A stretch of 62,515 nucleotides of DNA, counting the filler, from an uncultured bacterium (GTDB lineage Bacteria > DYJV01), in NCBI GenBank assembly GCA_964543655.1. It is 4 parts of 4 records of this genome, joined end to end, with 100 filler letters (N's around TTAATTAATTAA, not from the genome) between each part and the next. Parts side by side here need not be neighbours in the genome. Positions count along the whole stretch, not along the records: positions 1 to 24,608 come from CAZIZE010000007.1; 3 more parts are not named here. One strand, 5' to 3'. The stretch's first letter is position 1; each line of letters begins with the position of its first letter. The translations under genes were made by a program, and so were the position numbers. Shown in pieces: positions 497-38,537 of the stretch. Under the pieces are notes generated by a model. It was not told the origin of the DNA, did not search any database, and saw only the letters and a program-made list of their open reading frames with translations.

Positions 497-1765
497 TCAA
501 TATAAGAAACAGAAAGGATCTTTAAAATATGAAAAATTGATTTTAAGAGAATCGGTTACTGCAAGACAGCCTCTGCAAACTCTGTTAATAGGGCAATTTA
601 AACACTCTTGAGGAGGTTTTCTATATTTTTCTGCTTCTTCTGAAAAATATATAGTTTCAAAATCTTCCCTATAAACATTTCCAATGTATGAATGAAATTT
701 TCTACACGCATGAACTTCACCATCTGGAAGTATAGCTACAAAATTAAAAGCAGCTCCGCATCCAAAGTTTGTGCATCCACCAAAAACCTCATTATACTCT
801 TTGTACAAAACAATATTAATAAGGTTTTCTTTTAATCTAATTTTTTGATTTTTTTTAGCAAATTCCACATATTTATGTAAAAAATTCATAAATTCTTTTT
901 TATCAACCATTTCCAGATTTTTCCCTTCTCCAATAAGAGCAAGTCGATTAAAAGTGATACTATCAGTAAAGCTGTTAATTGTTGGTATGAGGTCAAAAAC
1001 TTCATTTATATTTTTTTTGTTCAATGTGAGCATTACATTTGAATAAATACTATACCTTTTTAATAATTTTAGGAAATCTATACTTTTTTTAAAATGACCT
1101 TTTCCCCTGATAAAATCGTTGTAAGATTTTAATCCCTCAAGACTAATTTGGTAAAATGAAGGCTTTTTTATTTCAACAATTCTTTTCAATTTTTCTTCAG
1201 AAACAGGATTGCCCAAAATACCAAGAGTAAAACCCATTTCATCTGCTTTTTCATACAGTTTAAAAAAGCTTTTATGTAAAAAAGGATTACCACCTGTGAA
1301 AGTAATTTGAGGCCAAAGAGAATATTTGAAACAGAACTTGAAAATTTTTTCCATTATTTTTTCTAACTTCTCCATGCTAAGCTCTTTTCTACTTGTCCTA
1401 TCATAACAGTGCTTACAATTTAAGTCACATCTATTGGTGATATGCCATTGGACATTGAAAACCTCTGGCTCAAGAAAATCATTTTTATATTCCTTTATTT
1501 TAAGAGGAAACTTTATAGGATCTCTTTTAATTAAAGGTTCTGATTTTATAATAAGATTTCTATCAAATGCTCTTTTCAAAAACCATAAAATAATTTTAGG
1601 TTTGATTTGGAATTTTCTGGCAATTTCAAGAGGATCTAAATTTTCAGCAATAATTTTTAAAGCAAGCAATTCCTCATTTGTTGTAAGTTTTAGTTCTGAA
1701 TTTACCTTTAAATAGTAGTTCTCCTTATGTTTATGTATTTCAAGAGAAGGGTTTAATTTAAACAT
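497..1765 (-). CDS. sbtM: Radical SAM/SPASM RiPP maturase, selenobiotic (thio/selenooxazole-forming) family
   Basis: QWHITNRCDLNCKHCY (CxxxCxxC), FTGGNP, and a SPASM Cys pattern (GGCTNFGCGAA...ACRKF...CLNCPINRVCRGCLA...DPFCF). Lies directly downstream of an SGUG peptide. The track start (1795) is inside a hairpin, so ATG 1765 is preferred. Confidence 0.8.
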   Translation of the reverse strand: MFKLNPSLEIHKHKENYYLKVNSELKLTTNEELLALKIIAENLDPLEIARKFQIKPKIILWFLKRAFDRNLIIKSEPLIKRDPIKFPLKIKEYKNDFLEPEVFNVQWHITNRCDLNCKHCYDRTSRKELSMEKLEKIMEKIFKFCFKYSLWPQITFTGGNPFLHKSFFKLYEKADEMGFTLGILGNPVSEEKLKRIVEIKKPSFYQISLEGLKSYNDFIRGKGHFKKSIDFLKLLKRYSIYSNVMLTLNKKNINEVFDLIPTINSFTDSITFNRLALIGEGKNLEMVDKKEFMNFLHKYVEFAKKNQKIRLKENLINIVLYKEYNEVFGGCTNFGCGAAFNFVAILPDGEVHACRKFHSYIGNVYREDFETIYFSEEAEKYRKPPQECLNCPINRVCRGCLAVTDSLKINFSYFKDPFCFLY

Positions 1766-1777
1766 TTTATAAAAGAA

Positions 1778-1800
1778 AAGGGATGCGAACTGCATCCCCT
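1778..1800 (-). promoter_or_regulatory. Candidate SECIS for the third UGA of sbtA; also intrinsic-terminator-like
   Basis: Minus strand reads AGGGGATGC-AGTTC-GCATCCCTT (9-bp stem). The loop starts 19 nt after UGA 1813-1811 and has G then U near its 5' side. A U-rich tract (TTCTTTT) follows. Confidence 0.6.
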
Positions 1801-1804
1801 ATTG

Positions 1805-2041
1805 TTAACCTCAACCACTACTTTCTTTTTTCATCATCTTACTTGAAGAATTATCTTTAGATTTATTATCAGATTTTGTGCTAACAGCACTACTGGATTT
1901 TCCGCCTCAACCTCCTCATCCACTTTTTGCAATAACTATCTTATCATTATCCAAATTTGTTGCATGCAAAAGATTGGCACCACCTATTAAACTAAATAGA
2001 CTTAATCCAGCTAAAAATTTTTTAACATTATCATTTTTCAT
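1805..2041 (-). CDS. sbtA: Selenocysteine-containing RiPP precursor (SbtA/selenobiotic family), 78 aa, 3 Sec
   Basis: SD GAGGTG, ATG 2041. Translation MKNDNVKKFLAGLSLFSLIGGANLLHATNLDNDKIVIAKSGUGGUGGKSSSAVSTKSDNKSKDNSSSKMMKKESSGUG, ending in TAA (1807-1805). In-frame TGA at 1918-1916, 1909-1907 and 1813-1811, each flanked by Gly. Adjacent to the rSAM maturase. Confidence 0.85.
1878..1890 (-). promoter_or_regulatory. Candidate in-frame SECIS hairpin for UGA codons 42/45 of sbtA
   Basis: Minus strand reads GTGCT-GTT-AGCAC. The GU-initial loop starts 21 nt after UGA45 and 30 nt after UGA42. Confidence 0.45.
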
Positions 2042-2063
2042 TTTTGTCACCTCTTGCATAATT

Positions 2064-2086
2064 TTCCCCCTCTATTAGAGGGGGAA
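2064..2086. other. Strong intergenic hairpin between the large cytochrome gene and sbtA
   Basis: TTCCCCCTCT-ATT-AGAGGGGGAA, a perfect 10-bp inverted repeat. No U-tract on the transcribed (minus) strand. Confidence 0.7.
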
Positions 2087-2094
2087 GGGAATTC

Positions 2095-4491
2095 CTACTT
2101 TTTCCCTGGTTTTGAAGGAGGAATACCTTTGGCAGGCTGAATACCTCTTTTAGCAAGTTCTTCTATAATTTTTTTCATCATTTCTAAGTGTTGTTTTGGA
2201 TCCAATGTGCCTTTTGTTGAAATTTTTTCCCACAATTTTGCCTGAGTCATACTCTGGTGACATCCCATACAGAGTCCTGACCTCATAATAGTATCAAGTT
2301 CCTGTTTATTAAAAGCTCTACTCATTGGCCAGTGTGTACCTACTGTGGCAACCTGAACCCCATCTCTTGTTACAATTTGAGACCAATCATATTTTAACTC
2401 TGGAATTCCAGGGATTTGAACTTTATATTTTGTAGGAATTACTTTATTGGTTTTAGCATTAATCAAGTCTTCAACAATATCTTTATCCCATTTCATAAAA
2501 GAACCGCCACCAATTCCAAGGCCAACTGTTTTTGGATTAGTATGACATGATTCGCATGTTCTTGCTTTCCTCTGAGCAGTATGTGGTTGAACAGGACTCA
2601 TATCAATTGCAAGAGGTACCTGTTTTTGTCCTAATTCTTTAGCCTCATCAAGGCTATATGCGATTTTATTATTAACAAGAACTTTTCCATCAGGACCAAT
2701 TACTGTATATGTAACCTGACAGCCTGGCATTAGAGGTGAAACTCTTCCTTCTCCATTGATTCCAAGCACAGGATCTTCCCATCTTAAGTATGATCTTGAT
2801 TCCATTGCTTTACCAAGAGATTTTACACCATTTGTCCCATAAGCAGCATCAGCTGTTTGGCCATGTTTGTCATGAGTATTTCCATTTGCAATCCAATCAG
2901 TATCCATCTTCATTTTTCCAGTTTTTTTATCTCTTTTAAAAGTAACTTTCACATGGCATCCATAACATTGTGGTACCCATGAAGCATGGCATGAATAACA
3001 CTCCATCTTGTCCATATGTTTAGCTACTGCTTCCATTGCTACTTTAGCAGAAGGATCTTTCCATTTATTCTGTAAAGAAAGATTTTTTAATACAGGAACA
3101 TGGAAATCGTTTCCTGTTGCAGAGTGAACAATTACTTCATTACCTTTTCTAACAACATTTCCAAGTGGATTACCTCTTGCTGAAAGAATAAAGCCATCTT
3201 CTGGTTTATATTGGAATCCAAATTGATCTTCAGGCGCAACTCTTTTTTTTGCAACTCCTCTTGGTTTGTTAGAAAGCTTTTTACCTGCTTCATCACCATA
3301 ACCAAGTGGCAATTCCCATGGATACTTATCTGGTCGACCATGGCAATCTGTACACTCTATTTCTACCTGACCTAAAGTAGTTGTATGAATATTGCCATCG
3401 CCATGCATTTCTATACTTGTGTGGCAGTCCTGACATAGCAGACCACCTTTAGGGTTCTCTTTCCTGCTCTGATATTGATGATGTAAATCATCTGAAATAA
3501 AAATATACTTTTTAGTATGGAGCTTTGGTTGCTTCATACCTTTTTTATTAAAAGGAGTACCATAAGGAAATTCCATTAAACCTTGAAATGAAACACCAAT
3601 TCTTTTTCCTCTATTGTGACAAGAATTACATGTTTCTACAGGTATACCACCAGTGTATCTTGTACCAGCAATTTTATGCCTTAATAAATGGCCTGGTTTA
3701 TCTTTTGGAATGGAAGGATCATTTCCTTCATAATATCCATCATTGCTGTAGAGAATATGACATGCGGAACATCCCATTCCTCTGTAGTCGCCTCTTTTCT
3801 CTCTTCCTCTTACACCAATATGACATCTCTGGCACTGCTGTCTTTGATAAACAATTCCAGCAAGTTTAGGATCTTTTATAACATCAGCCACTTTAACAGT
3901 AGGAAGCTGTTTTAATTTTTCAGGATAAATTTTAGGATACATCTGAATCATTTCTTTCATATATTTTTTATATTTATCCATTCCTACCATTGGCATTGAA
4001 CCGTCAAGATCCTCTGCATTATAGTTACCATAAGGATTATTATGATTTTGAACTTCTTTAAATCCCCAGGTGTGAAGGTTACCAGAAATTTTACCAGCCT
4101 CTGTGTTCATTAATCCAATTTTATTTCTATAAACGTATCCAACGTGACAAACTCCACAACTATTATCAGCAATCCAGATTGAACCAGGATCAGGATAGAA
4201 AGCCTTTGGACCAGGTGCTATTTTCAATGTTGCAGGAACACCTTTGTGTGCTTTATCCTTGTCTTTGGTCTCTTTTGGGTTACCACCGTGACAGATTACA
4301 CAGCCATCAGGATCGCCATGCATTTTACCATTGTTTAAAATTGCCTGCATCATTTTACTATCTTTTGGCATAATGTCTTCAATTCCTTTGTGACATTTTG
4401 CAGTTGTACACCCGCCGCCAGCATAAATAAAGTTAGCAAAAGATAGAAAAGAACAGATTGAAATAAAAATTACAAACCTTTTAAAACTCAT
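2095..4491 (-). CDS. Large exported multiheme cytochrome c (11 CxxCH plus one CX4CH)
   Basis: Signal peptide. Motifs CTTAKCH, CVICH, CGVCH, CQRCH, CSACH, CNSCH, CQDCH, CTDCH, CYSCH, CYGCH, CESCH, CMGCH. SD GGAGGGAG. Confidence 0.9.
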   Translation of the reverse strand: MSFKRFVIFISICSFLSFANFIYAGGGCTTAKCHKGIEDIMPKDSKMMQAILNNGKMHGDPDGCVICHGGNPKETKDKDKAHKGVPATLKIAPGPKAFYPDPGSIWIADNSCGVCHVGYVYRNKIGLMNTEAGKISGNLHTWGFKEVQNHNNPYGNYNAEDLDGSMPMVGMDKYKKYMKEMIQMYPKIYPEKLKQLPTVKVADVIKDPKLAGIVYQRQQCQRCHIGVRGREKRGDYRGMGCSACHILYSNDGYYEGNDPSIPKDKPGHLLRHKIAGTRYTGGIPVETCNSCHNRGKRIGVSFQGLMEFPYGTPFNKKGMKQPKLHTKKYIFISDDLHHQYQSRKENPKGGLLCQDCHTSIEMHGDGNIHTTTLGQVEIECTDCHGRPDKYPWELPLGYGDEAGKKLSNKPRGVAKKRVAPEDQFGFQYKPEDGFILSARGNPLGNVVRKGNEVIVHSATGNDFHVPVLKNLSLQNKWKDPSAKVAMEAVAKHMDKMECYSCHASWVPQCYGCHVKVTFKRDKKTGKMKMDTDWIANGNTHDKHGQTADAAYGTNGVKSLGKAMESRSYLRWEDPVLGINGEGRVSPLMPGCQVTYTVIGPDGKVLVNNKIAYSLDEAKELGQKQVPLAIDMSPVQPHTAQRKARTCESCHTNPKTVGLGIGGGSFMKWDKDIVEDLINAKTNKVIPTKYKVQIPGIPELKYDWSQIVTRDGVQVATVGTHWPMSRAFNKQELDTIMRSGLCMGCHQSMTQAKLWEKISTKGTLDPKQHLEMMKKIIEELAKRGIQPAKGIPPSKPGKK

Positions 4492-4611
4492 TTCTCCCTC
4501 CTAAGATTTTTAAAAATTTGTGAAAATAAATTTTCATATCACCTCCCTTCTTATAAAAGTTTGAAGTTCATAATCCAATGTTGAGAAGTAATTACACACA
4601 ATATTATGTAT

Positions 4612-5793
4612 TTATTTTGCATCATTTATTATTGGTAAAGCAATTTTAACAAGCATAGTGTATATTAAAAGCCCAGCAGCCCATATACCTATAACAATGA
4701 ATACTTCATTTAAAGTTGGCACATATTGAATAAAATCACCAATAGTTGAAGGTATGAACCCTGGAATTAGAAATCCAAGACCTTTTTCTAACCACACCCC
4801 GAGCACTGTGAAAAGGCATGCAATTATGAGAAAACTATTTTTAAATCTTAAAGGTGTTACAAATATAAAAACAGCAGACAAAATTAAAAGTATTGCAAGC
4901 CAAATCCATGGAGTTAATAAGCTTGAACCGTGCAGTCCAAGTAAAAAAGAAAGATGAATAGTATGAGTTGTTGAATGATAAAGTTCAGCAAAAATTTCAG
5001 AACCCATAAGAATAAGATTAATAATTAGGCTGACAGTTACTATAATTCTAATTCTATTAATTGCACCATCACTTATTTCAATTGCTTTACTCTTTTTCAA
5101 AATCATAAATACCAGAATCATAAATGCGGGACCTGCAGAAAAAGCAGATGCCAGAAATCTTGGTGCAACAATTCCTGAGTGCCAGAAAGGTCTTCCTACA
5201 AGAGCTTCAAATAAAAAACCTGTAACAGTATGAATTGATGGTGCCCATACAATAGAAAGAAACACAACAAAAATATAAAAAGATGTTTTTACTTCTAAGT
5301 GCCTATATTTTCGTGATAAATAGTGCCAACAAACAAAAAGATTAATTAAAAGATAGCCATTTAAAACAAGAACATCCCATGTTAACATTGACCTTGGCCA
5401 ATGAAATCTTCCTATTACCGGTATTAGATGCCATAGCCTATCAGGCCGACCAAGATCTATTGTAATAAAAAGCATGCACATTATAAGTGCAGCAATTGCA
5501 AATAGCTCTGCAAAGATAACAATTTTCCCCATATCTTTATCTTTAAAAACATATGCAGGAATTACCATCATCACAGCAGCAGCAGCCATCCCTACAAGAT
5601 AAACAAAGTTTGCTATATAGAATCCCCAGGAAACTTCATCTCCCATTCCTGTTGTATAAAGACCAAAAGCAAGTTGTTTAGCATAGCAATGTAAACCTAT
5701 TAAAACCAGGGTTAATAAAAACAATACCCAGATAATGTATGCTTTACTGCCATTTATTGTTGATTTTACAATATATCTTAAAACATCTATCAT
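4612..5793 (-). CDS. NrfD/PsrC/DsrP-family quinone-interacting membrane subunit
   Basis: About 10 TM helices; VSWGFYIANFVYLVG, DLGRPDR, SIHTVT and RFLASAF motifs. Confidence 0.88.
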   Translation of the reverse strand: MIDVLRYIVKSTINGSKAYIIWVLFLLTLVLIGLHCYAKQLAFGLYTTGMGDEVSWGFYIANFVYLVGMAAAAVMMVIPAYVFKDKDMGKIVIFAELFAIAALIMCMLFITIDLGRPDRLWHLIPVIGRFHWPRSMLTWDVLVLNGYLLINLFVCWHYLSRKYRHLEVKTSFYIFVVFLSIVWAPSIHTVTGFLFEALVGRPFWHSGIVAPRFLASAFSAGPAFMILVFMILKKSKAIEISDGAINRIRIIVTVSLIINLILMGSEIFAELYHSTTHTIHLSFLLGLHGSSLLTPWIWLAILLILSAVFIFVTPLRFKNSFLIIACLFTVLGVWLEKGLGFLIPGFIPSTIGDFIQYVPTLNEVFIVIGIWAAGLLIYTMLVKIALPIINDAK

Positions 5794-5811
5794 CTATTCC
5801 TCCCCTATCTT

Positions 5812-6735
5812 CTAAGCTTTTGAAAAAACATAGTATAATTGAGGTATTGTGCCCATCTCCTCTTTTAAAATGAAGACTCTTTCCTGCTCTATAATTCTTC
5901 TAACTTCACTTTTGGGATCCCTTAAATTTCCAAATTTTCTTGCACCAGTTGGGCAAACCTCAACACATGCAGTATATTTTCCTTTTCTTGTTCTTTGAAG
6001 GCAGAATGTGCATTTTTCCATCACATTGGTATATCTTGGCCTGTTGGATAGATATGCCATATCAGGATTAAGTTCATCAGATGGTATGTGTGGTTTTGCC
6101 CAGTTGAAACGTCGTGCATGATATGGACATGCTGCTTCACAATATCTGCATCCAATACACCAGTTATAATCTACTACAACAATACCATCCTTTTCCTTCC
6201 AGGTTGCTCCTACTGGACAAACTTCAACACAAGGAGGTTTTCTACATTGGTGGCATTGAATAGGCATGTACCAGTAATTGGGGTCAGCAGCTTCATTTTC
6301 TGGGTAATCGTGGCTTCCCTGTTCAAGGTTAATGGAGCCTTTTTTCATTTTCACAACTCTAATATATTGAATTTGAGGATTACGTGAAGTATTATTTTCT
6401 TTCATACATGCATAAACACATCTTCTGCAACCAATACATCTACCCACATTAATTACCATTGCAAATTCCACTGCATCAATAGGAGGGGGATCGTCTATTT
6501 TAACCTTTTTGTTATACTCTTTTCTTAATTTTTGCTCCAATTTTTTAAAAAGTACCTTTTTATCCTCTGGTGTCATTTCTTTATAATGTTTTTGGAGTAT
6601 TTCATCTATAGTTGGTACTTCAGCTGCTTTGGTTAAAGGAGAAAGAGCTGCTGCGCCAGCAAGTGTAACAGCTCCACCAACAGCAGTTGCTGTAATAAAT
6701 TCTCTTCTTGTTAATTTTTCTTTCTTTTTTTTCAT
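5812..6735 (-). CDS. Tat-exported 4x[4Fe-4S] protein (NrfC/DsrO/QrcC family)
   Basis: Twin-arginine signal LTRREFI. Four Cys groups: CIGCRRCVYAC, CHQCRKPPCVEVC, CIGCRYCEAAC, CTFC...CVEVC. Confidence 0.9.
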   Translation of the reverse strand: MKKKKEKLTRREFITATAVGGAVTLAGAAALSPLTKAAEVPTIDEILQKHYKEMTPEDKKVLFKKLEQKLRKEYNKKVKIDDPPPIDAVEFAMVINVGRCIGCRRCVYACMKENNTSRNPQIQYIRVVKMKKGSINLEQGSHDYPENEAADPNYWYMPIQCHQCRKPPCVEVCPVGATWKEKDGIVVVDYNWCIGCRYCEAACPYHARRFNWAKPHIPSDELNPDMAYLSNRPRYTNVMEKCTFCLQRTRKGKYTACVEVCPTGARKFGNLRDPKSEVRRIIEQERVFILKEEMGTIPQLYYVFSKA

Positions 6736-7389
6736 CTATTTTGCCCCTTTAATTTTGTTTGGAACAGGAAATGATAAAGAATATGGTGTATTCTCAAATA
6801 TATCAATAGGTTTTAACCTTATAAACTTTTTGTCCCATACTGGTGCTGGGTCAAAATTTCTAAATTTATATTTTGGAGAATGTGGATCATGGCAAAAAGT
6901 GCATTTGAAATTTGTCCTGTCAAATCTTCCTTTTACAATCCATTTCCCTCTTAAAGAACCGTGCATCCCATTTTTCCACCTTTTGTAAACAAGTCCATGA
7001 CACCTTGCACAGAGAAGCTCTACATTAAAATACATTATTTTAGAACCGTCATTATTAACATAGTTATTTCTGTCAGATTCAAGATGGCAATTGAAACATC
7101 TATTGTTTTTCCCATGATTTAATTTAACTTCTGGGTGAACAAATTGAACAGGAAAATGAGAAAGTTGAGGTATTGAAGCCCACATAGCATGGCATACCCA
7201 GCAATTGCCCACAATAACAGCATGTTTCATTAAGTTTTCTCTTGGAAGCTCAGGATTGTACCATTTGGCTTTTAATTTTGGTATATTTTTTATTGGATTG
7301 GAGACTTTTTGCCCGCTAATTATAAAACTAATAAAAAGTATAATGCATAGAGGAATACCAATTATTAGCCATAAATTATTTTTATTCAT
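6736..7389 (-). CDS. Membrane-anchored tetraheme cytochrome c
   Basis: N-terminal TM helix; CWVCH, CFNCH, CARCH, CTFCH. Confidence 0.85.
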   Translation of the reverse strand: MNKNNLWLIIGIPLCIILFISFIISGQKVSNPIKNIPKLKAKWYNPELPRENLMKHAVIVGNCWVCHAMWASIPQLSHFPVQFVHPEVKLNHGKNNRCFNCHLESDRNNYVNNDGSKIMYFNVELLCARCHGLVYKRWKNGMHGSLRGKWIVKGRFDRTNFKCTFCHDPHSPKYKFRNFDPAPVWDKKFIRLKPIDIFENTPYSLSFPVPNKIKGAK

Positions 7390-7455
7390 AATTTCCGCCC
7401 TTAAAAAATTATTAAAACCCTGTTATAACTTTACACTTAAAAATAAAATTTAGCC

Positions 7456-7473
7456 ATACCGTAAATATGGTAT
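7456..7473. promoter_or_regulatory. Candidate 7-2-7 inverted-repeat operator in the divergent promoter region
   Basis: A-TACCGTA-AA-TATGGTA-T, near the middle of the 7390-7544 intergenic region. Geometry resembles NarL/FixJ-type sites, and a NarL-family regulator is encoded nearby. Confidence 0.4.
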
Positions 7474-7544
7474 TTTATTTTTCAGATAGATTTTTTGAAA
7501 AATTTAATGTAAATATAGAACACAATAAATTCAGGAGGGCACTA

Positions 7545-7820
7545 ATGAAAAAATTTAGAGCAGTTTTAATTATTTTTACTCTTCTTTTTTCCACAATTCT
7601 TTTTGCAAAAAGCATTACAGAGACTCTTAAGGTTAAGGGTATGTCGTGACCTGGTAGAGCATATCAGGTGCGTAGCGCCTTAAAAAGTAACAGTGGTATA
7701 GAAAATGTAAAAACAGATGTGCATAATCATACAATTAAAATTACATTTGACAACAGCAAAATAAATTTGGAGAAAATAAAAAGAATTATTGAAGATAAGG
7801 GATTTAAAGTAGTTAAATAA
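7545..7820 (+). CDS. Exported heavy-metal-associated (HMA; MerP/CopZ-like) selenoprotein, 91 aa, Sec35
   Basis: SD AGGAGG, ATG 7545. Translation MKKFRAVLIIFTLLFSTILFAKSITETLKVKGMS-U(TGA 7647-7649)-PGRAYQVRSALKSNSGIENVKTDVHNHTIKITFDNSKINLEKIKRIIEDKGFKVVK, ending in TAA. The TGA sits at the first Cys of GMxCxxC, the HMA pattern continues after it, and the ORF ends 11 nt before the next gene. Confidence 0.8.
7666..7680 (+). promoter_or_regulatory. Candidate SECIS hairpin for the HMA selenoprotein
   Basis: AGGTGC-GTA-GCGCCT, a GC-rich island in AT-rich DNA. The GU-initial loop starts 22 nt after the UGA. Confidence 0.55.
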
Positions 7821-7831
7821 TTTAAAATATA

Positions 7832-10000
7832 ATGTTTAAAAGCATAAAAACAAAACTTATTTTTGCTTTTATTACCATTAATTTTCTTTCTGTAATTCTG
7901 ACAGCTTTTTATGCGAGGTATATTCAGAAAAGATTTGAAATAGAGAGAGCTGAAAAAATAGCTTTAAATGAAGTAAATTATCTGACTAAAGCAATTAAGA
8001 ACAATTTTAAACTTGCAATATCAGATTTGCTTATCCTTAGAGATTTACCTGATCTTCAACAATTTATAAATAATCCTACTGATGATGGGAAGTTAAAAAT
8101 TGAGAAGATTTTTATTAATTTTGCAAAATATCACAAAATATTTTACCAAATAAGACTTTTAGATCTATTTGGAAAAGAGATTATCAGGATTAACTGTATA
8201 AAAACTCCTTTTGTTGTTCCTGATAAAGAATTGCAGGTAAAATTTCACAGATACTATTTTCAGGCTATGTTGAAATTAAAAAAAGGTGAGGTATATATTT
8301 CTCCCTTTGATCTTAATGTAGAACACCATAAAATAGAAGTGCCATATAAACCAGTGATTAGAATAGGGATTCCTATATTTAACAAAAATAATAACAGCTC
8401 TTATTTCCTGATTGTAAATGTAGATGGTAATTTAATTTTAAATTTATTTAAAAGTCGAGAGAATAGAAAACTTGGAAAATACTTCTTAATTGATTGTAAA
8501 GGGAATTTTATTTACCATCCAAACAAAGAGAAAAGATTTGCATTTATGTTTGGCAAAAATGAAACTATTTTCAAAGAAGCCCCATATTTAAAGGATTTTA
8601 TAAAAAACAAAAAAGAAGGTGTTAAATATTTTGCCAAAGGGATAAAACATTTTTCAATAGTAAGTTTTAAAAAATTTAAACCTATTTCAAAAGGTAAGTC
8701 ACCAGAATTTGCAGTTATCTATTCAATATTTGATCCTGAATTATTAATAGGCTTTAATAAATATTTTAAAAACTTTATTATTTTCACTTTAATAATATTG
8801 CTTATTTCTTTAATCATTTCAACTTTTATTTCATTCACAATATCAAAGCCTATTTTAAAACTTGCAAAATTAACTAAAAAAATTAAGGATGGTGATCTGT
8901 CTGCACGTGTTGATATTAGAACCAATGATGAGCTTGGAATTCTGTCAGAAAACTTTAACAAAATGACTGAGAAGTTAAAACATACTATTACTCAGCTTAA
9001 ATCATCAGAGGAGAAGTATAGAAATTTATTTGAAAATACTCAGGATACAGTATTTCTCATAGATTTTTTGGGTAATATAAAGGAGTTAAACAGAGCAGGG
9101 CATACTCTTTTTGGTATTGAAAATATCAATAATAGAAATATATTTGAGTTTATTAAAGATAATTTTATAGAACAGATTAAAGAGGAAGATGAGATACACG
9201 AGAAGGAGATAGAGATTTTTAATTTAAAAGGTGAGAAAAGATTTGGTTCAATTAAAGCTCAGGTTAGAGATAAAGATTTTATTCAGGGGATTATTAGAGA
9301 TATTACTGAATTAAAAAAAAGACATGAGGAGAGGTTAAAAACCAAGCGTTTAATTGAAGAGCAAATTATACTTGCTGAGGAAAGAGAGAGGAGAAATATT
9401 GGTCAGCTTATCCATGAGCAACTTGCTCAAGATATAGCATTTTTACATTTAAAAACAGAAGAGCTTTATGAAAAATTTAATAATGATTCAATATTACAAA
9501 TTTTAAATACCACCAATAAAATGTTAAAGCAGATTAGGGGTACAATATTTGACTTATGTCCTGTAATTCTTGATGAGCATGGTTTAATATCAGCGATTAG
9601 GTGTTATTGTGAAAATTTTGAAGAAAAAAGTAAAATAAAGGTATTATTTTACACAAATTTGAGGGAGGAAAATATCCCTTTAACACAAACTGAAAAGTTT
9701 TATCTTTTTAGAATAGTTAAAGAGCTATTGAACAATGTATTAAAATATTCAGGTGCAACAGAGGTTGTTATCTCATTTTTGATTGTTGAAAATGTTTTAA
9801 GACTTGTTATAGACGATAATGGTAAGGGGTTCAATGTTGAGAAATATTTTAACAGGAAAAAATATAGTAGCGGCATTGGATTATTTACAGTAAAAAAATG
9901 GGTTGAGCATTTTAAAGGAAATTTCTACATAGAATCTGCAGAAGGAGAGGGAACACGTGCTATAATAGAGATTCCTGAAAAAGGTGCAGAGAATGATTAG
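7832..10000 (+). CDS. Sensor histidine kinase (periplasmic Cache, HAMP, PAS, HisKA_3, HATPase)
   Basis: Two TM helices around a periplasmic domain; HAMP (PILKL...DELGIL); ERRNIGQLIHEQLAQ H-box; ELLNNVLKYS, DDNGKGF and GIGL boxes. Confidence 0.9.
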   Translation: MFKSIKTKLIFAFITINFLSVILTAFYARYIQKRFEIERAEKIALNEVNYLTKAIKNNFKLAISDLLILRDLPDLQQFINNPTDDGKLKIEKIFINFAKYHKIFYQIRLLDLFGKEIIRINCIKTPFVVPDKELQVKFHRYYFQAMLKLKKGEVYISPFDLNVEHHKIEVPYKPVIRIGIPIFNKNNNSSYFLIVNVDGNLILNLFKSRENRKLGKYFLIDCKGNFIYHPNKEKRFAFMFGKNETIFKEAPYLKDFIKNKKEGVKYFAKGIKHFSIVSFKKFKPISKGKSPEFAVIYSIFDPELLIGFNKYFKNFIIFTLIILLISLIISTFISFTISKPILKLAKLTKKIKDGDLSARVDIRTNDELGILSENFNKMTEKLKHTITQLKSSEEKYRNLFENTQDTVFLIDFLGNIKELNRAGHTLFGIENINNRNIFEFIKDNFIEQIKEEDEIHEKEIEIFNLKGEKRFGSIKAQVRDKDFIQGIIRDITELKKRHEERLKTKRLIEEQIILAEERERRNIGQLIHEQLAQDIAFLHLKTEELYEKFNNDSILQILNTTNKMLKQIRGTIFDLCPVILDEHGLISAIRCYCENFEEKSKIKVLFYTNLREENIPLTQTEKFYLFRIVKELLNNVLKYSGATEVVISFLIVENVLRLVIDDNGKGFNVEKYFNRKKYSSGIGLFTVKKWVEHFKGNFYIESAEGEGTRAIIEIPEKGAEND

Positions 10001-10640
10001 AGCTGTTATAGTTGATGACCATATAATGTTTAAGGAAGGATTGAAAAATCTTATTTTAAAGGAACCTGAAATAGTTATTGTTGGCGAGGATGATAATGGT
10101 ATAACAGCACTTGACAAAATAATATCATTAAAACCTGATATAGCTATAGTTGATATTTCAATTCCTGGGTTAAATGGTATAGAACTAACGAAACTTATAA
10201 AGAAAAATGTGCCTAAAACAGAAGTTTTAATACTCTCTATGCACGCAGATACTTATTTTGTTATAAATGCTATGAAAAGTGGTGCAAAAGGTTATATATT
10301 AAAGGAAGATAGTTTCAAGCTATTAATAGAAGCTATAAAAAAAGTGTCAAAAGGTAGATTTCTCCTTTCTCCTGCATTTAATTCCATAGATGTGAAGAAA
10401 ATTTTTCATAATGATACATTTGAAGAAGATAATAATCTTGATCAACTTCTTACTGAAAGAGAGATACAGATTTTGCAGATGATTGCAGAGGGTTTTACTA
10501 ATTCACAAATTGCTGAAAAATTGTTTATTAGTACAAGGACTGTTGATACACATAGAAAAAATATAATGAAAAAGTTGAATATACACAATGTATCAGGTCT
10601 TGTAAAATATGCAATTAAACATAAGATTATTGTAATTTAA
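9993..10640 (+). CDS. NarL/FixJ-family response regulator (REC plus LuxR HTH)
   Basis: VIVDDH, DISIP and LTEREIQIL...TVDTHRKNIMKKL. ATG 9993 overlaps the kinase stop. Confidence 0.92.
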   Translation: MIRAVIVDDHIMFKEGLKNLILKEPEIVIVGEDDNGITALDKIISLKPDIAIVDISIPGLNGIELTKLIKKNVPKTEVLILSMHADTYFVINAMKSGAKGYILKEDSFKLLIEAIKKVSKGRFLLSPAFNSIDVKKIFHNDTFEEDNNLDQLLTEREIQILQMIAEGFTNSQIAEKLFISTRTVDTHRKNIMKKLNIHNVSGLVKYAIKHKIIVI

Positions 10641-15363: not shown

Positions 15364-16293
15364 TTATAAATTAATACGCTGTAAAACATTTAAAAATATT
15401 AAAGGTAACATTATTTCATGATGGCCAATAATATAGTAGCCTTTGCCTCCATTTTGAACTGGCCTATTTACAACATTTGTAAGCGGCCTGTACTGTTTTA
15501 TAAAGTCAAGATTTACTGTAATAAACCTGTCAACTTTGAAATTAAGGTTTCTTACAAGTGTAACTGCTTTTAAAAAAATTTCTGGCAAAACAACAGCAGA
15601 CCCTATATTAAAAAATACTCCATCTTGCAAGTCTTTTATTGTATTTGCAAAAATTTTAAAATCTTTTAAACTTCCTTCTCCAATAGCACTGCCATTTGCT
15701 TCAGGGCTCATATGTATAATATCTGTCCCAACAGCAACATGCACAGTTATAGGAATGTTATGTTGGTACGCAGTTGCAAAGATTGAAAAATCTTTATACC
15801 TGTAGTCAGAGTTTGTTAGCCATTTTCCAATTGTTTCTCCAAGTCCAATTCCTTCCACAAAACCAGAGTTTATAGCATTGTTTATTAAACTATTTGTCTC
15901 TTCACTCATTCCAAATTCACCTTTTTTCAATGCCTCATCAACATCCTCTGATGTAGCTCCATTTATTGCAATCTCAACATCATGAACAATAGCTGCACCA
16001 TTGAAAGCAATATGGCTAATAACTTTATTTTTAATTAATTTATTAATTAATGGTGATAAGCCAACTTTAATTACATGTGCACCCATTGCAACAACGATTT
16101 TTTTACTTTTTTTATAAGCATTAACAGTATGTTCAATTATCTCTTTAACCTCTTTGGCAGCTAATATATTTGGTATCTGGTCAATAAAATTTTCGCCATT
16201 AAAATTGAAAAAATCATCTATATTAACCTTACTTTTTCTCTTATTTAAAGGATATGTGTTCAATTTATCATATTTAAGCTCTTTGAATTTCAT
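15364..16293 (-). CDS. Deoxyhypusine-synthase-like conserved protein (GSU2086-like)
   Basis: MGAHVIKVGL, HVAVGTDIIH, GSAVVLPEIFLK, GHHEIMLP. Confidence 0.65.
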   Translation of the reverse strand: MKFKELKYDKLNTYPLNKRKSKVNIDDFFNFNGENFIDQIPNILAAKEVKEIIEHTVNAYKKSKKIVVAMGAHVIKVGLSPLINKLIKNKVISHIAFNGAAIVHDVEIAINGATSEDVDEALKKGEFGMSEETNSLINNAINSGFVEGIGLGETIGKWLTNSDYRYKDFSIFATAYQHNIPITVHVAVGTDIIHMSPEANGSAIGEGSLKDFKIFANTIKDLQDGVFFNIGSAVVLPEIFLKAVTLVRNLNFKVDRFITVNLDFIKQYRPLTNVVNRPVQNGGKGYYIIGHHEIMLPLIFLNVLQRINL

Positions 16294-38517: not shown

Positions 38518-38537
38518 ATGAATTGAAGGAGGAAATT

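What the first reader, a model, noticed from the sequence alone, without database searches (positions are those of the whole stretch)
497..10640. Divergent selenium-rich locus: Sec-RiPP plus maturase on a multiheme respiratory operon, facing a Sec-HMA protein and a two-component system
Seen: one 155-bp intergenic region separates two arms. Left arm: tetraheme cytochrome c > Tat 4x[4Fe-4S] > NrfD-type membrane subunit > 12-heme cytochrome > three-UGA peptide > radical SAM/SPASM enzyme. Right arm: UGA-containing exported HMA protein > Cache/HAMP/PAS kinase > NarL-type regulator. Four in-frame UGAs fall at Cys-equivalent positions in two small exported proteins, both missed or truncated by standard ORF calling. 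Established: SbtM-family rSAM enzymes convert Cys/Sec in SbtA peptides to thio(seleno)oxazoles; thiooxazole-bearing exported RiPPs made by other enzymes (bufferins/oxazolins) bind copper; HMA domains bind soft metals. Inference: this is a co-regulated periplasmic system in which selenium-based soft-metal ligands are coupled to a quinol-to-multiheme electron conduit, for metal/metalloid sensing, buffering or reduction. I do not recognise this combination as a described system.
Basis: partly seen in the sequence, partly recalled or inferred. Interest (0 to 1): 0.92.

Follow-up and report, generated by a model that had tools for sequence, protein, structure and literature searches.

The report
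Selenopeptide cassette beside cytochrome operon

Summary
The minus arm encodes a membrane-anchored tetraheme cytochrome, a Tat-exported 4x[4Fe-4S] protein, an NrfD/DsrP-like subunit, a 12-heme cytochrome, SbtA with three UGA codons, and SbtM. The plus arm encodes an exported HMA protein with one UGA, a Cache/HAMP/PAS kinase and a NarL-type regulator. Three of the four UGAs carry a hairpin with GU in the loop 24-26 nt downstream, and the fourth shares one. Only 10 of 2222 TGAs in the window do so, but 65 of 99 UGAs in 39 other SbtA genes do.

The "one system" reading is weak.
- None of 79 other SbtM loci has a homolog of the cytochromes, FeS protein, NrfD protein or HMA protein, and no neighbour family recurs in more than 8 of 80 loci.
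- The 12-heme protein belongs to a very widespread, highly conserved family (60-90% identity).
- A related contig keeps the cytochrome operon and the kinase colinear but did not align over sbtA/sbtM.

My reading is that an ordinary SbtA/SbtM cassette sits behind a conserved quinol-multiheme operon that is probably controlled by the divergent HMA-kinase-regulator operon. The single-Sec HMA (U-P-G-R, no second Cys) is the newest element.

This scan has already reported SbtA/SbtM, Sec-HMA proteins and this 12-heme family on other DNA. Sec machinery could not be checked because no genome is held.

The parts
6736..7389 (-). Membrane-anchored tetraheme cytochrome c, first gene of the minus arm
   Evidence: 217 aa with an N-terminal hydrophobic helix and 4 CXXCH motifs. 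Weak Cytochrom_c3_2 and NrfB/NrfH matches.
5812..6735 (-). Tat-exported NrfC/DsrO-like 4x[4Fe-4S] subunit
   Evidence: RREF twin-arginine motif and four Cys clusters. DsrO NF045797 182.2 bits (cut-off 200); Fer4_11 78.8 bits. Its start abuts the stop of the tetraheme gene.
4612..5793 (-). NrfD/DsrP-like quinone-interacting membrane subunit
   Evidence: PF03916 139.9 bits; NF045798 DsrP 378.9 bits (cut-off 350).
2095..4491 (-). 12-heme periplasmic cytochrome of a widespread conserved ExtM-like family, with one invariant non-heme Cys (C591, in PGCQ)
   Evidence: 11 CXXCH plus CX4CH. ExtM NF040943 213.5 bits (cut-off 800). 2771 homologs at E<=1e-10, the best at 90, 82, 77, 76 and 75% identity. 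C591 is invariant in 31 of 31 aligned sequences.
2065..2085 (-). 9-bp GC-rich hairpin between the cytochrome stop and sbtA, with no U tract after it
   Evidence: Fold of 2030-2110: -23.3 kcal/mol, z -2.77, 2 of 200 shuffles as good. The terminator scan did not call it.
1805..2059 (-). sbtA precursor peptide with three Sec codons (U48, U51, U83 counted from the ATG at 2059; the likely true start is ATG 2041)
   Evidence: Translation. TIGR04081 25.9 bits (cut-off 30.5) over the leader. Leader and SGUG cores match 39 SbtA peptides in other loci. Identical in L002.
1878..1890 (-). SECIS-like mini-hairpin GUGCU-GUU-AGCAC serving U51 (G at +25) and probably U48 (+34)
1778..1800 (-). 9-bp hairpin with loop AGUUC and a U-rich tail: SECIS-like for U83 (G at +24) and terminator-like between sbtA and sbtM
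   Evidence: z -2.58.
497..1795 (-). sbtM, radical SAM/SPASM thio(seleno)oxazole maturase, short form (start at 1795 or 1765)
   Evidence: TIGR04082 510 bits (cut-off 350), matching model positions 123-516. CxxxCxxC (C123/C127/C130) and the SPASM cysteines are invariant in 25 aligned sequences.
7390..7544 (.). 155-bp divergent intergenic region holding the window's only TACC-N8-GGTA palindrome (7457-7472), a candidate regulator site
   Evidence: 1 match in 62.5 kb; 0.26 expected.
7545..7820 (+). Exported HMA-fold protein with a single Sec (TGA at 7647-7649, motif GMS-U-PGR) and no Cys in the mature part; first gene of the kinase operon
   Evidence: PF00403 48.5 bits across the UGA. Model pLDDT 87.8 with beta-alpha-beta-beta-alpha-beta order. 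Best structural matches are CopZ and MerP, TM 0.89-0.96. Shine-Dalgarno sequence and signal peptide.
7666..7680 (+). SECIS-like hairpin AGGUGC-GUA-GCGCCU, with G at +26 from the UGA
   Evidence: A second, 8-bp hairpin starts directly at the UGA.
7832..10000 (+). Sensor histidine kinase (periplasmic Cache-type sensor, HAMP, PAS, HATPase_c), starting 11 nt after the HMA stop
9984..10640 (+). NarL/LuxR-type response regulator, overlapping the kinase gene by 17 nt
   Evidence: Response_reg 77.9 bits and GerE 82 bits. Below every NCBIfam equivalog cut-off.

Best explanation
The locus is three modules side by side.

1. A conserved respiratory operon. A membrane-anchored tetraheme cytochrome, a Tat-exported four-cluster FeS protein and an NrfD/DsrP-like quinol-binding subunit pass electrons between the menaquinone pool and a periplasmic 12-heme cytochrome. 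That cytochrome belongs to a very widespread, strongly conserved family with one invariant free cysteine, so it is more likely an enzyme acting on a sulfur- or selenium-type substrate than a plain wire (inference).

2. A divergent HMA-kinase-regulator operon that probably controls module 1 and itself through the shared 155-bp spacer (inferred from arrangement, from colinearity in a related contig, and from one palindrome). Its first gene is an exported HMA-fold protein with a single selenocysteine. This protein either buffers a soft metal or feeds a periplasmic signal to the Cache kinase (inference).

3. An ordinary SbtA/SbtM cassette. SbtM converts the three Sec residues of the exported peptide into selenooxazoles; this chemistry is known from Geobacter lovleyi SbtM. 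The cassette lies directly behind the cytochrome operon only in this lineage. It may be read through from the operon, and the hairpin after sbtA serves both as SECIS and as a leaky terminator that sets the peptide-to-enzyme ratio (inference).

The adjacency of module 3 to module 1 is most likely opportunistic and not a conserved functional coupling.
For: Module identities rest.

Sec reading:
- A hairpin of at least 5 bp with GU in the loop and G at +22..+28 follows U51 (+25), U83 (+24) and HMA U61 (+26). U48 shares the U51 hairpin at +34.
- Only 10 of 2222 TGAs in the window meet this rule, and the other 7 lie in closed frames.
- Applied unchanged to other loci, the rule is met by 65 of 99 UGAs in 39 distinct SbtA peptides, against 472 of 25974 background TGAs.

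SbtA typicality:
- 37 of 39 peptides have a U within the last six residues, and in 15 of 39 it is penultimate.
- U counts are 2 (23 peptides), 3 (9 peptides) and 4 (3 peptides).
- Some family members print Cys at equivalent core positions (L034, L039, L049).

Cassette independence:
- 0 of 79 non-self loci have tblastn hits to the tetraheme, FeS, NrfD, 12-heme or HMA proteins.
- Across all 80 loci, 33 hold >=3 kb and 19 hold >=6 kb upstream of sbtM. Only L049 carries a multiheme ORF (8 CXXCH, 5.7-7 kb away) and L015 a diheme ORF.
- The recurring neighbours are housekeeping genes found in at most 6-8 loci.

Cytochrome family independence:
- 2771 homologs, 59-90% identical among the 120 listed, with source names ranging from Desulforhopalus to Bacteroidota and Gemmatimonadota.
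- None of the 120 listed cyt12 hits shares a longest-contig length with any of the 120 listed SbtM hits (compared by eye; a weak test).

Related contigs:
- X2 record 10 (12.7 kb, about 80-83% nucleotide identity) is colinear from 2116 through the FeS and tetraheme genes into the kinase (joint 8373->9518). It has no listed piece on 700-2115.
- X3 record 15 aligns over 2116-3093 and then runs on for 6.6 kb unlike the window.
- X3 depth is 0.25-1.05 over 700-2027, against 15-24 over the cytochrome gene.

Operon structure: HMA stop to kinase start is 11 nt, and kinase and regulator overlap. The TACC-N8-GGTA site occurs only in the spacer.
Against: - The sbtA start lies only 35-53 nt behind the cytochrome stop on the same strand. 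The hairpin between them has no U tract, so co-transcription, and therefore co-regulation in this organism, is quite possible.
- The four closest SbtM relatives (P0004-P0007, 58-62% identity) come from sources I could not open, so the arrangement may be conserved in that small clade.
- The 12-heme protein is so conserved that a contig 82% identical in that gene may belong to a fairly distant organism. Its sbtM would then fall below the 80% threshold used for laying contigs, so failure to align is not proof of absence. A small extra depth over 700-1031 in X1 and X2 is unassigned.
- GC content does not mark sbtA/sbtM as foreign. The cytochrome operon stands out instead, at 33-37% against 23-29%.
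- Two unrelated Sec genes within 6 kb, next to a cytochrome whose nearest named relative comes from a 'selenite/tellurite reduction operon', is a coincidence that the integrated reading would explain.
- Sec machinery was not shown. No genome is held, and none of the 30 other window ORFs tested (of 46) matched SelA, SelB or SelD.
Confidence: 0.6

Rival explanations
1. The selenooxazole peptide and the Sec-HMA protein are dedicated periplasmic soft-metal or metalloid ligands. They work with the quinol-to-12-heme conduit to sense, buffer or reduce a metal or metalloid, all under the two-component pair.
For: - Tight same-strand packing with no canonical terminator between the cytochrome gene and sbtA.
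- Both Sec genes of the 62.5-kb window lie in this 6-kb locus.
- The nearest named relative of the 12-heme protein is ExtM of the Geobacter cluster implicated in selenite/tellurite reduction (PMC5877670, passages read).
- Thiooxazole RiPPs made by other enzymes bind copper (PMC11626156, search listing and abstract only).
Against: - 0 of 79 other SbtM loci show any of the partner genes.
- No conserved neighbourhood exists at all.
- The cytochrome family is far more widespread than SbtM and shows no co-location with it among the listed hits.
- The ExtM score is 213.5 bits against a cut-off of 800.
- No regulator-type palindrome lies near sbtA.
Confidence: 0.15
2. The HMA UGA is not selenocysteine. 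The small family genuinely has Trp at this position, and the window's TGA is a TGG-to-TGA nonsense mutation, so the gene is a pseudogene or yields only a 34-residue product.
For: The four closest full-length homologs (P0258, P0273, P0309, P0331; 34-53% identity) all print W exactly at the U position, in x-W-P-G-[RK]-A-Y or W-P-A-T-A-Y. TGG and TGA differ by one base. No close homolog with Cys at this position was found.
Against: - A SECIS-like hairpin sits at +26, a feature of only 0.45% of the window's TGAs.
- The frame stays open and the HMA domain continues to its end.
- All four W homologs come from contigs of 556-1542 nt. On such short AT-rich contigs, metagenome gene callers can pick a TGA=Trp model (my recollection, not tested), so W may simply be TGA.
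- The canonical residue at this position is the first metal-binding Cys, and more distant homologs have CxxC.
- Sec at this position of HMA domains is already catalogued as UxxC and UxxU (PMC13188914 table, passages read).
Confidence: 0.1
3. The third sbtA UGA (codon 83) is the real stop. The peptide then ends in ...KESSG with only two Sec residues, and the hairpin behind it is just the terminator.
For: A UAA follows only two codons later. The hairpin at 1800-1778 has a U-rich tail and was called terminator-like.
Against: In 15 of 39 other SbtA peptides the penultimate residue is U, and 37 of 39 have a U within the last six residues. The loop GU lies at +24, as at the other UGAs. The review table gives SGUG as the family motif.
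Confidence: 0.07

Closest known systems
SbtA/SbtM thio(seleno)oxazole RiPP system (NCBIfam TIGR04081/TIGR04082; Geobacter lovleyi SbtM. I read passages of the Bandarian perspective PMC9204691. The 2011 Haft prediction and the 2021 Lewis et al. paper are recalled, not read)
   Same: - A radical SAM/SPASM enzyme scoring above the curated cut-off.
- The precursor gene lies directly upstream on the same strand.
- A signal-peptide-like leader of the form ..VKKFLAGLS...
- Gly-flanked Sec cores (SGUGG, SSGUG), a Sec next to the C-terminus, and SECIS hairpins.
   Different: - Short-form SbtM lacking about 120 N-terminal residues of the model. This is shared by 10 of the 24 homologs I aligned (lengths 411-432).
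- No lipobox Cys after the signal peptide, unlike many family members.
- Two Sec residues only three residues apart share one hairpin.
- The cassette sits behind a respiratory operon.
ExtM (GSU2935) of the Geobacter sulfurreducens extHIJKLMNOPQS cluster (PMC5877670, passages read) and the unnamed conserved 12-heme family
   Same: Twelve c-type hemes, c7-type domain matches, and the best NCBIfam hit.
   Different: - The score is 213.5 bits against a cut-off of 800, so it is not an ExtM equivalog.
- It is about 200 residues longer than the ExtM model.
- Its partners are NrfC/NrfD plus a tetraheme cytochrome, not Rieske/cytochrome b with ExtN and ExtKL.
- There is no porin or rhodanese gene nearby.
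NrfD-type membrane complexes with cytochrome c partners: NhcABCD, DsrJOP of DsrMKJOP, MccACD (review PMC8076601, passages read)
   Same: A periplasmic multiheme cytochrome, a Tat-exported four-cluster FeS subunit and a cofactor-less NrfD-like quinone subunit. The NrfD subunit even passes the DsrP model.
   Different: There is no DsrM/K/J beside it. It has a 12-heme instead of a 9-heme or 8-heme subunit, plus an extra membrane-anchored tetraheme. This gene set does not appear in the passages of the review that I read.
Sec-containing HMA proteins: UxxU 'metal-binding (seleno)protein' NF041115 and the UxxC HMA domain of cation-transporting ATPases (PMC13188914 table); MerP/CopZ (PDB 1osd, 6ff2)
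   Same: Exported HMA fold (TM 0.89-0.96 to MerP and CopZ) with Sec at the position of the first metal-binding cysteine.
   Different: - Only one chalcogen ligand. The second Cys position is Arg, and there is no other Cys in the mature protein.
- NF041115 scores 30.9 bits against a cut-off of 95.
- It is the first gene of a two-component operon, not of a mer or cop operon.

Membership tests
SbtM (TIGR04082) | Score above the curated equivalog cut-off | tested here: met
   510 bits against 350; model positions 123-516 of 516 matched.
SbtM (TIGR04082) | Radical SAM CxxxCxxC motif and SPASM auxiliary-cluster cysteines | tested here: met
   C123/C127/C130 and C341, C346, C364, C398, C401, C407, C410 are invariant in 25 aligned sequences. 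PF04055 65.4 bits and PF13186 35.2 bits.
SbtM (TIGR04082) | Converts Cys/Sec of SbtA to thio(seleno)oxazole | not testable with these tools
   Known for G. lovleyi SbtM only (PMC9204691, passages read).
SbtA (TIGR04081) | Score above the curated cut-off of the 27-position leader model | tested here: inconclusive
   25.9 bits against 30.5. Residues 7-28 align to model positions 1-22. This is 4.6 bits short on a very short model.
SbtA (TIGR04081) | Gly-flanked Sec/Cys cores (SGUG/GGUG) in the C-terminal half, encoded directly upstream of sbtM | tested here: met
   SGUGGUGG and SSGUG. The same architecture occurs in 39 distinct peptides next to SbtM homologs. The motif is named in PMC13188914 and PMC9204691.
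Bacterial selenoprotein genes in general | SECIS hairpin shortly downstream of the in-frame UGA | tested here: met
   Three of the four UGAs have a GU-loop hairpin at +24 to +26 and the fourth shares one at +34. Window background is 10 of 2222. Independent SbtA set: 65 of 99 against 1.8%. The rule was framed after I had seen the window's hairpins.
Bacterial selenoprotein genes in general | selA, selB, selC (tRNA-Sec) and selD in the genome | not testable with these tools
   No genome is held. The window has only tRNA-Leu. None of the 30 other ORFs tested (of 46) matched SelA, SelB or SelD. Earlier scan note e1-977071 reports another candidate selenoprotein elsewhere in this genome; I did not check it.
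HMA domain (PF00403) | Score above gathering threshold and beta-alpha-beta-beta-alpha-beta fold | tested here: met
   48.5 bits against 24.8. Model pLDDT 87.8. Matches to CopZ 6ff2 and MerP 1osd at TM 0.96 and 0.89.
HMA domain (PF00403) | Two-cysteine CxxC metal site | tested here: not met
   The motif is U-P-G-R. The second position is Arg (AGA), and there is no other Cys in the mature protein.
UxxU metal-binding (seleno)protein (NF041115) | Score above cut-off and two Sec/Cys ligands | tested here: not met
   30.9 bits against 95, and a single U.
ExtM (NF040943) | Score above the equivalog cut-off and the ext-cluster context (ExtKL, ExtN, Rieske, cytochrome b) | tested here: not met
   213.5 bits against 800. 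None of those partners is in the locus.
DsrMKJOP | DsrP and DsrO together with DsrM, DsrK and the triheme DsrJ | tested here: not met
   The DsrP model is passed (378.9 against 350). DsrO falls below its cut-off (182.2 against 200). No DsrM, DsrK or DsrJ is adjacent. A NarI-like plus CCG fusion lies 30 kb away at 38523-40442.

The most novel reading that the evidence does not exclude
The single-Sec HMA protein heads a small undescribed selenoprotein family with the motif U-P-G-[RK]-A-Y. It acts as the periplasmic co-sensor of the Cache kinase. Its lone selenolate captures a soft metal or a sulfur/selenium species, and the kinase then switches on the conserved 12-heme His/Cys-type quinol complex that processes that species. 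In this lineage the SbtA selenooxazole peptide has been recruited behind the operon as a soluble periplasmic carrier or ligand for the same substrate. This would give the SbtA/SbtM family its first physiological context.
Probability: 0.12. Interest if true: 0.8.

Novelty: new variant of a known kind. Interest (0 to 1): 0.38.

Why it matters
The biological role of SbtA/SbtM selenooxazole peptides is unknown, so a conserved link to a respiratory complex would have been a real clue. The comparison shows instead that the cassette travels alone. That is useful negative information.

Three leads remain.
- A single-selenocysteine HMA protein sits at the head of a two-component operon, and four apparent homologs may all hide a UGA.
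- A sensor-regulator pair with a candidate operator faces a member of a very widespread, strongly conserved and still uncharacterised 12-heme cytochrome family. That arrangement could make the inducing signal of the family testable.
- One organism exists in which sbtA/sbtM expression may be driven by a respiratory operon.

Tried and rejected
- **Whole-genome look-ups for selA, selB and selD:** no genome is held.
- **Genome-contig scan with the single SbtM protein:** That genome (G001) has no SbtM above the cut-off. Its IleRS is only 47% identical. None of the 272 genomes of its phylum has the 12-heme protein. It was therefore useless as a centre for neighbourhood searches.
- **Viral-contig scan with the cytochrome alignment:** nothing.
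- **Sequencing runs:** no RNA holder is listed, so co-transcription could not be examined.
- **PDB and Atlas:** the PDB sequence search with the 12-heme protein gave no match. The Atlas search returned only 'cytochrome C' clusters.
- **Literature searches:** 'selenooxazole' and 'selenobiotic' returned 0 papers, and 'selenobacteriocin' returned 1, in the held library. 'SbtM' alone returned unrelated acronyms.
- **Promoter scan:** 69 sites against 56.5 +/- 8 expected, so it is uninformative in this AT-rich DNA.
- **GC profile:** it does not mark sbtA/sbtM as an insertion.
- **HMA word-index search:** it found only the window's own two fragments.
- **Complex prediction of HMA with the kinase sensor domain:** not attempted, because the HMA protein exists only under a TGA=Sec reading.
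- **Supplementary files of the papers:** not available. The selenoprotein tables of PMC13188914 and BSepDB may list HMA variants that I could not see.

Full report
**1. What is there**

On the minus strand:
- 6736-7389 encodes a 217-aa protein with an N-terminal hydrophobic helix and four CXXCH motifs.
- 5812-6735 encodes a 307-aa protein with an RREF twin-arginine motif and four Cys clusters. It scores 182.2 bits on DsrO (cut-off 200).
- 4612-5793 is an NrfD protein (Pfam 139.9 bits) that also passes the DsrP model at 378.9 bits (cut-off 350).
- 2095-4491 encodes 798 aa with 11 CXXCH plus one CX4CH, so twelve hemes.
- 1805-2059 reads MQEVTKMKNDNVKKFLAGLS...KSGUGGUGGK...ESSGUG with three TGAs.
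- 497-1795 is SbtM (TIGR04082, 510 bits, cut-off 350).

On the plus strand:
- An HMA protein carries TGA at 7647-7649.
- A kinase follows, with a periplasmic Cache-type sensor, HAMP, PAS and HATPase_c domains.
- A Response_reg plus GerE regulator comes last.

Gene spacing is tight. The FeS gene abuts the tetraheme gene. The gap to the NrfD gene is 18 nt, and the gap to the 12-heme gene is 120 nt. The gap to sbtA is 35 nt, or 53 nt if sbtA starts at the ATG at 2041. That start sits behind GAGGTGA and aligns with the N-termini of other SbtA peptides.

The HMA gene really starts at 7545, behind AGGAGGG, and encodes a signal peptide. The kinase starts 11 nt after the HMA stop, and the regulator overlaps the kinase.

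To the right lie housekeeping genes, including a YejM-like gene and ileS. To the left, the identical metagenome contig L002 extends the window by about 1.2 kb. It shows a Spherulin4-family protein and an L,D-transpeptidase behind sbtM.

**2. Are the UGAs selenocysteine codons?**

Several lines of evidence say yes.
- The Pfam HMA match runs without a break over residues 53-114, across U61.
- A model built on alignment A2 has pLDDT 87.8 and the beta-alpha-beta-beta-alpha-beta order, with the U in the loop before helix 1.
- The best structural matches are CopZ and MerP, with TM 0.89-0.96.
- Folding the RNA showed small hairpins with GU in the loop at a fixed distance from the UGAs.

I turned that last observation into a rule: a stem of at least 5 bp, a loop of 3-7 nt containing GU, and the G at +22 to +28 from the U of UGA.
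- U51 meets it at +25, U83 at +24 and HMA U61 at +26.
- U48 lies nine bases upstream of U51 and shares its hairpin at +34.
- Only 10 of the 2222 TGA triplets in the window meet the rule, and the other seven lie in frames full of stops.

Because the rule was framed after I had seen these hairpins, I applied it unchanged to independent data. In 39 distinct SbtA-like peptides next to SbtM homologs in loci L003-L081, 65 of 99 UGAs meet it, against 472 of 25974 background TGAs, or 1.8%.

L002 is a separate assembly and has the same three TGAs in sbtA.

The Sec machinery itself could not be checked.
- No genome is held.
- The window has only tRNA-Leu.
- None of the 30 other ORFs tested (of 46 ORFs of at least 100 aa) matched SelA, SelB or SelD.
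- The 16 untested ORFs are all shorter than 270 aa.
- An earlier scan note (e1-977071) reports another candidate selenoprotein elsewhere in this genome. I did not verify it.

**3. SbtA/SbtM is an ordinary member of a known family**

SbtM has the CxxxCxxC and SPASM cysteines invariant in 25 aligned sequences. The collection holds 2988 proteins at E<=1e-20 among the 8000 scored. Many are named 'selenobiotic family' or 'SbtM' by their sources.

The window's enzyme is a short form. It matches model positions 123-516, as do the 411-432-aa homologs from Caldimicrobium and Thermosulfurimonas.

The SbtA peptides in other loci share several features:
- the leader M-D-x-x-[DE]-L-K-K-x-L-A-G-L-S;
- Gly/Ser-flanked U cores;
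- a U close to the C-terminus, within the last six residues in 37 of 39 peptides and penultimate in 15 of 39;
- two U (23 peptides), three U (9 peptides) or four U (3 peptides).

Some members have Cys at equivalent cores (L034, L039, L049). So 'Cys-equivalent positions' is correct, and three Sec residues are normal.

The TIGR04081 score is 25.9 bits, just under the 30.5 cut-off of a 27-position model.

[quoted passage not shown] The same text states that the biological function is unknown. A 2026 review table lists the family as 'Selenobacteriocin, TIGR04081, SGUG' (PMC13188914).

Two details are particular to this copy. It lacks the lipobox Cys that many members have. Its hairpin at 1800-1778 serves as SECIS for U83 and also looks like an intrinsic terminator, with 9 bp and a U-rich tail.

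**4. Is the cassette tied to the cytochrome operon?**

I scanned public metagenome contigs with alignment A1. Of 600 pattern matches, 514 encoded relatives, and the best 80 were kept. L002 is the same DNA as the window.

- In the other 79 loci, tblastn with the window's tetraheme, FeS, NrfD, 12-heme and HMA proteins found nothing at E<=1e-5. Only three loci (L019, L030, L073) gave generic kinase or regulator hits.
- Across all 80 loci, 33 hold at least 3 kb upstream of sbtM, 19 hold at least 6 kb, and 32 hold at least 3 kb downstream. Only L049 has a multiheme ORF (8 CXXCH, 5.7-7 kb away) and L015 a diheme ORF.
- Clustering all flank ORFs gave no neighbour family in more than 8 of 80 loci. The larger clusters were shadow ORFs inside sbtM.
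- The recurrent real neighbours are PrmA, a thioesterase, an acyl-CoA ligase, CFA synthase and similar housekeeping genes.

SbtA/SbtM therefore behaves as a self-contained two-gene cassette.

**5. The cytochrome operon has a life of its own**

The 12-heme protein has 2771 homologs at E<=1e-10. The 120 listed are 59-90% identical over nearly the full length. Their source names include Desulforhopalus, Desulfogranum, Bacteroidota, Gemmatimonadota and Methyloligellaceae. In 31 aligned sequences about a quarter of all columns are invariant, including all heme motifs and the single free cysteine C591 in P-G-C-Q.

Earlier scan notes describe the same 'widespread unnamed 12-haem family', and one proposes that this Cys ligates a heme (e1-1422714, e1-2445060, e1-5280068). 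I confirmed the conservation but not the ligation. There is no solved relative by sequence. The nearest named family, ExtM, scores 213.5 bits against a cut-off of 800.

None of the 120 listed cytochrome hits shares a longest-contig length with any of the 120 listed SbtM hits. This is a weak by-eye test, but it includes the 18.5-kb and 12.1-kb contigs of two of the closest SbtM relatives.

Three DNA runs hold the stretch. When their contigs were laid on the window:
- X1 has it whole and is probably the source.
- X2 record 10 (12.7 kb, depth 23.3, 80-83% identical) is colinear from 2116 through the 12-heme, NrfD, FeS and tetraheme genes into the kinase (joints 3015->3446, 5463->5812 and 8373->9518 at the same depth). 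It has no listed piece on 700-2115, although 4.3 kb of the contig lie on that side.
- X3 record 15 matches 2116-3093 and then continues for 6.6 kb unlike the window.
- X3 depth is 0.25-1.05 over 700-2027, against 15-24 over the cytochrome gene.

A caveat applies. This cytochrome is so conserved that these contigs may come from fairly distant organisms, whose sbtM would fall under the 80% threshold. The result shows no support for conservation. It does not prove absence.

**6. The plus arm**

The HMA-kinase-regulator spacing indicates one operon. The related contig keeps the kinase next to the cytochrome operon, and X2 depth suggests that it also covers the 3' half of the HMA gene. That second point is an inference from bin depths.

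The spacer contains TACCGTAAATATGGTA at 7457-7472. It is the only TACC-N8-GGTA in 62.5 kb (0.26 expected). It lies 68-83 nt upstream of the tetraheme start and 73-88 nt upstream of the HMA start. The resemblance to the 7-2-7 sites of NarL-type regulators is my recollection. It is a candidate operator, nothing more.

The HMA protein is unusual. Its motif is GMS-U-PGR, the second Cys position is Arg, and the mature protein has no other Cys.
- The word-index search found only its own two truncated fragments.
- The exhaustive HMMER search found 1277 proteins at E<=0.001, mostly multi-domain proteins.
- The four closest single-domain homologs (34-53% identity) all print W at the U position, followed by P-G-[RK]-A-Y or P-A-T-A-Y. 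More distant homologs have CxxC.
- All four W homologs come from contigs of 556-1542 nt.

I think W there is TGA read by a code-4 gene model. I could not see the DNA, so the pseudogene alternative stays open at about 10%.

Sec at the first Cys of HMA domains is already catalogued as UxxC and UxxU. This scan has reported several such proteins, including one single-Sec MerP-like case (e1-4491868). This protein is therefore a new variant of a known kind.

**7. Mechanism**

Shown:
- gene identities, cofactor motifs and export signals;
- SECIS-like hairpins;
- family membership of SbtM;
- lack of conserved linkage between the cassette and the cytochrome operon.

Inferred:
- The four-gene operon moves electrons between menaquinol and the periplasmic 12-heme protein. 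It is built like NhcABCD or DsrJOP (review passages).
- The invariant Cys suggests catalysis on a sulfur- or selenium-type substrate.
- The two-component system controls both divergent promoters.
- The Sec-HMA protein binds a soft metal or chalcogen species and may report to the kinase.
- sbtA/sbtM is read through from the operon, with the post-sbtA hairpin attenuating sbtM.
- The 9-bp hairpin at 2085-2065 (z -2.77) has no U tract and may stabilise the operon's 3' end.

**8. Verdict**

Novelty lies in the single-Sec HMA variant and in the lineage-specific arrangement, not in a new kind of system.

Noticed in passing
window 7457-7472: The perfect palindrome TACCGTAAATATGGTA is the only TACC-N8-GGTA in the 62.5-kb window (0.26 expected). 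It sits midway in the 155-bp divergent spacer and may be the operator of the NarL-type regulator.
   Followed up: partly
window 2095-4491 (residue C591): The 12-heme cytochrome has exactly one non-heme Cys in its mature part, in P-G-C-Q. It is invariant in 31 of 31 homologs at 59-90% identity, which hints at a catalytic or heme-ligating role.
   Followed up: partly
window 2000-7400 versus flanks: The cytochrome operon has 33-37% GC, while sbtM, the kinase operon and the flanking genes have 23-29%. This could reflect amino-acid constraint or foreign origin of the operon.
   Followed up: no
window 2065-2085 (minus strand): A strong 9-bp GC hairpin without a U tract lies between the cytochrome stop and sbtA. 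It overlaps a GAGGGGG that would otherwise serve the upstream ATG at 2059.
   Followed up: partly
proteins P0258, P0273, P0309, P0331: Four small exported HMA proteins from very short metagenome contigs print Trp exactly where the window has UGA. They are probably hidden selenoproteins called with a TGA=Trp model.
   Followed up: partly
window 38523-40442: A 639-aa fusion of a NarI-like membrane domain, a 4Fe-4S dicluster and two CCG domains, resembling DsrMK/HmeCD, lies 30 kb from the DsrOP-like genes.
   Followed up: no
L002 4201-5891 (left of the window start): Behind sbtM on the same strand lie a Spherulin4-family exported protein and a YkuD L,D-transpeptidase with a Cds6-type C-terminal domain. 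They are unrelated to the locus.
   Followed up: partly
window 15364-16293: This ORF is a GSU2086-family protein (409 bits, cut-off 250). The family is named after a Geobacter gene, in an otherwise very AT-rich vent bacterium.
   Followed up: no
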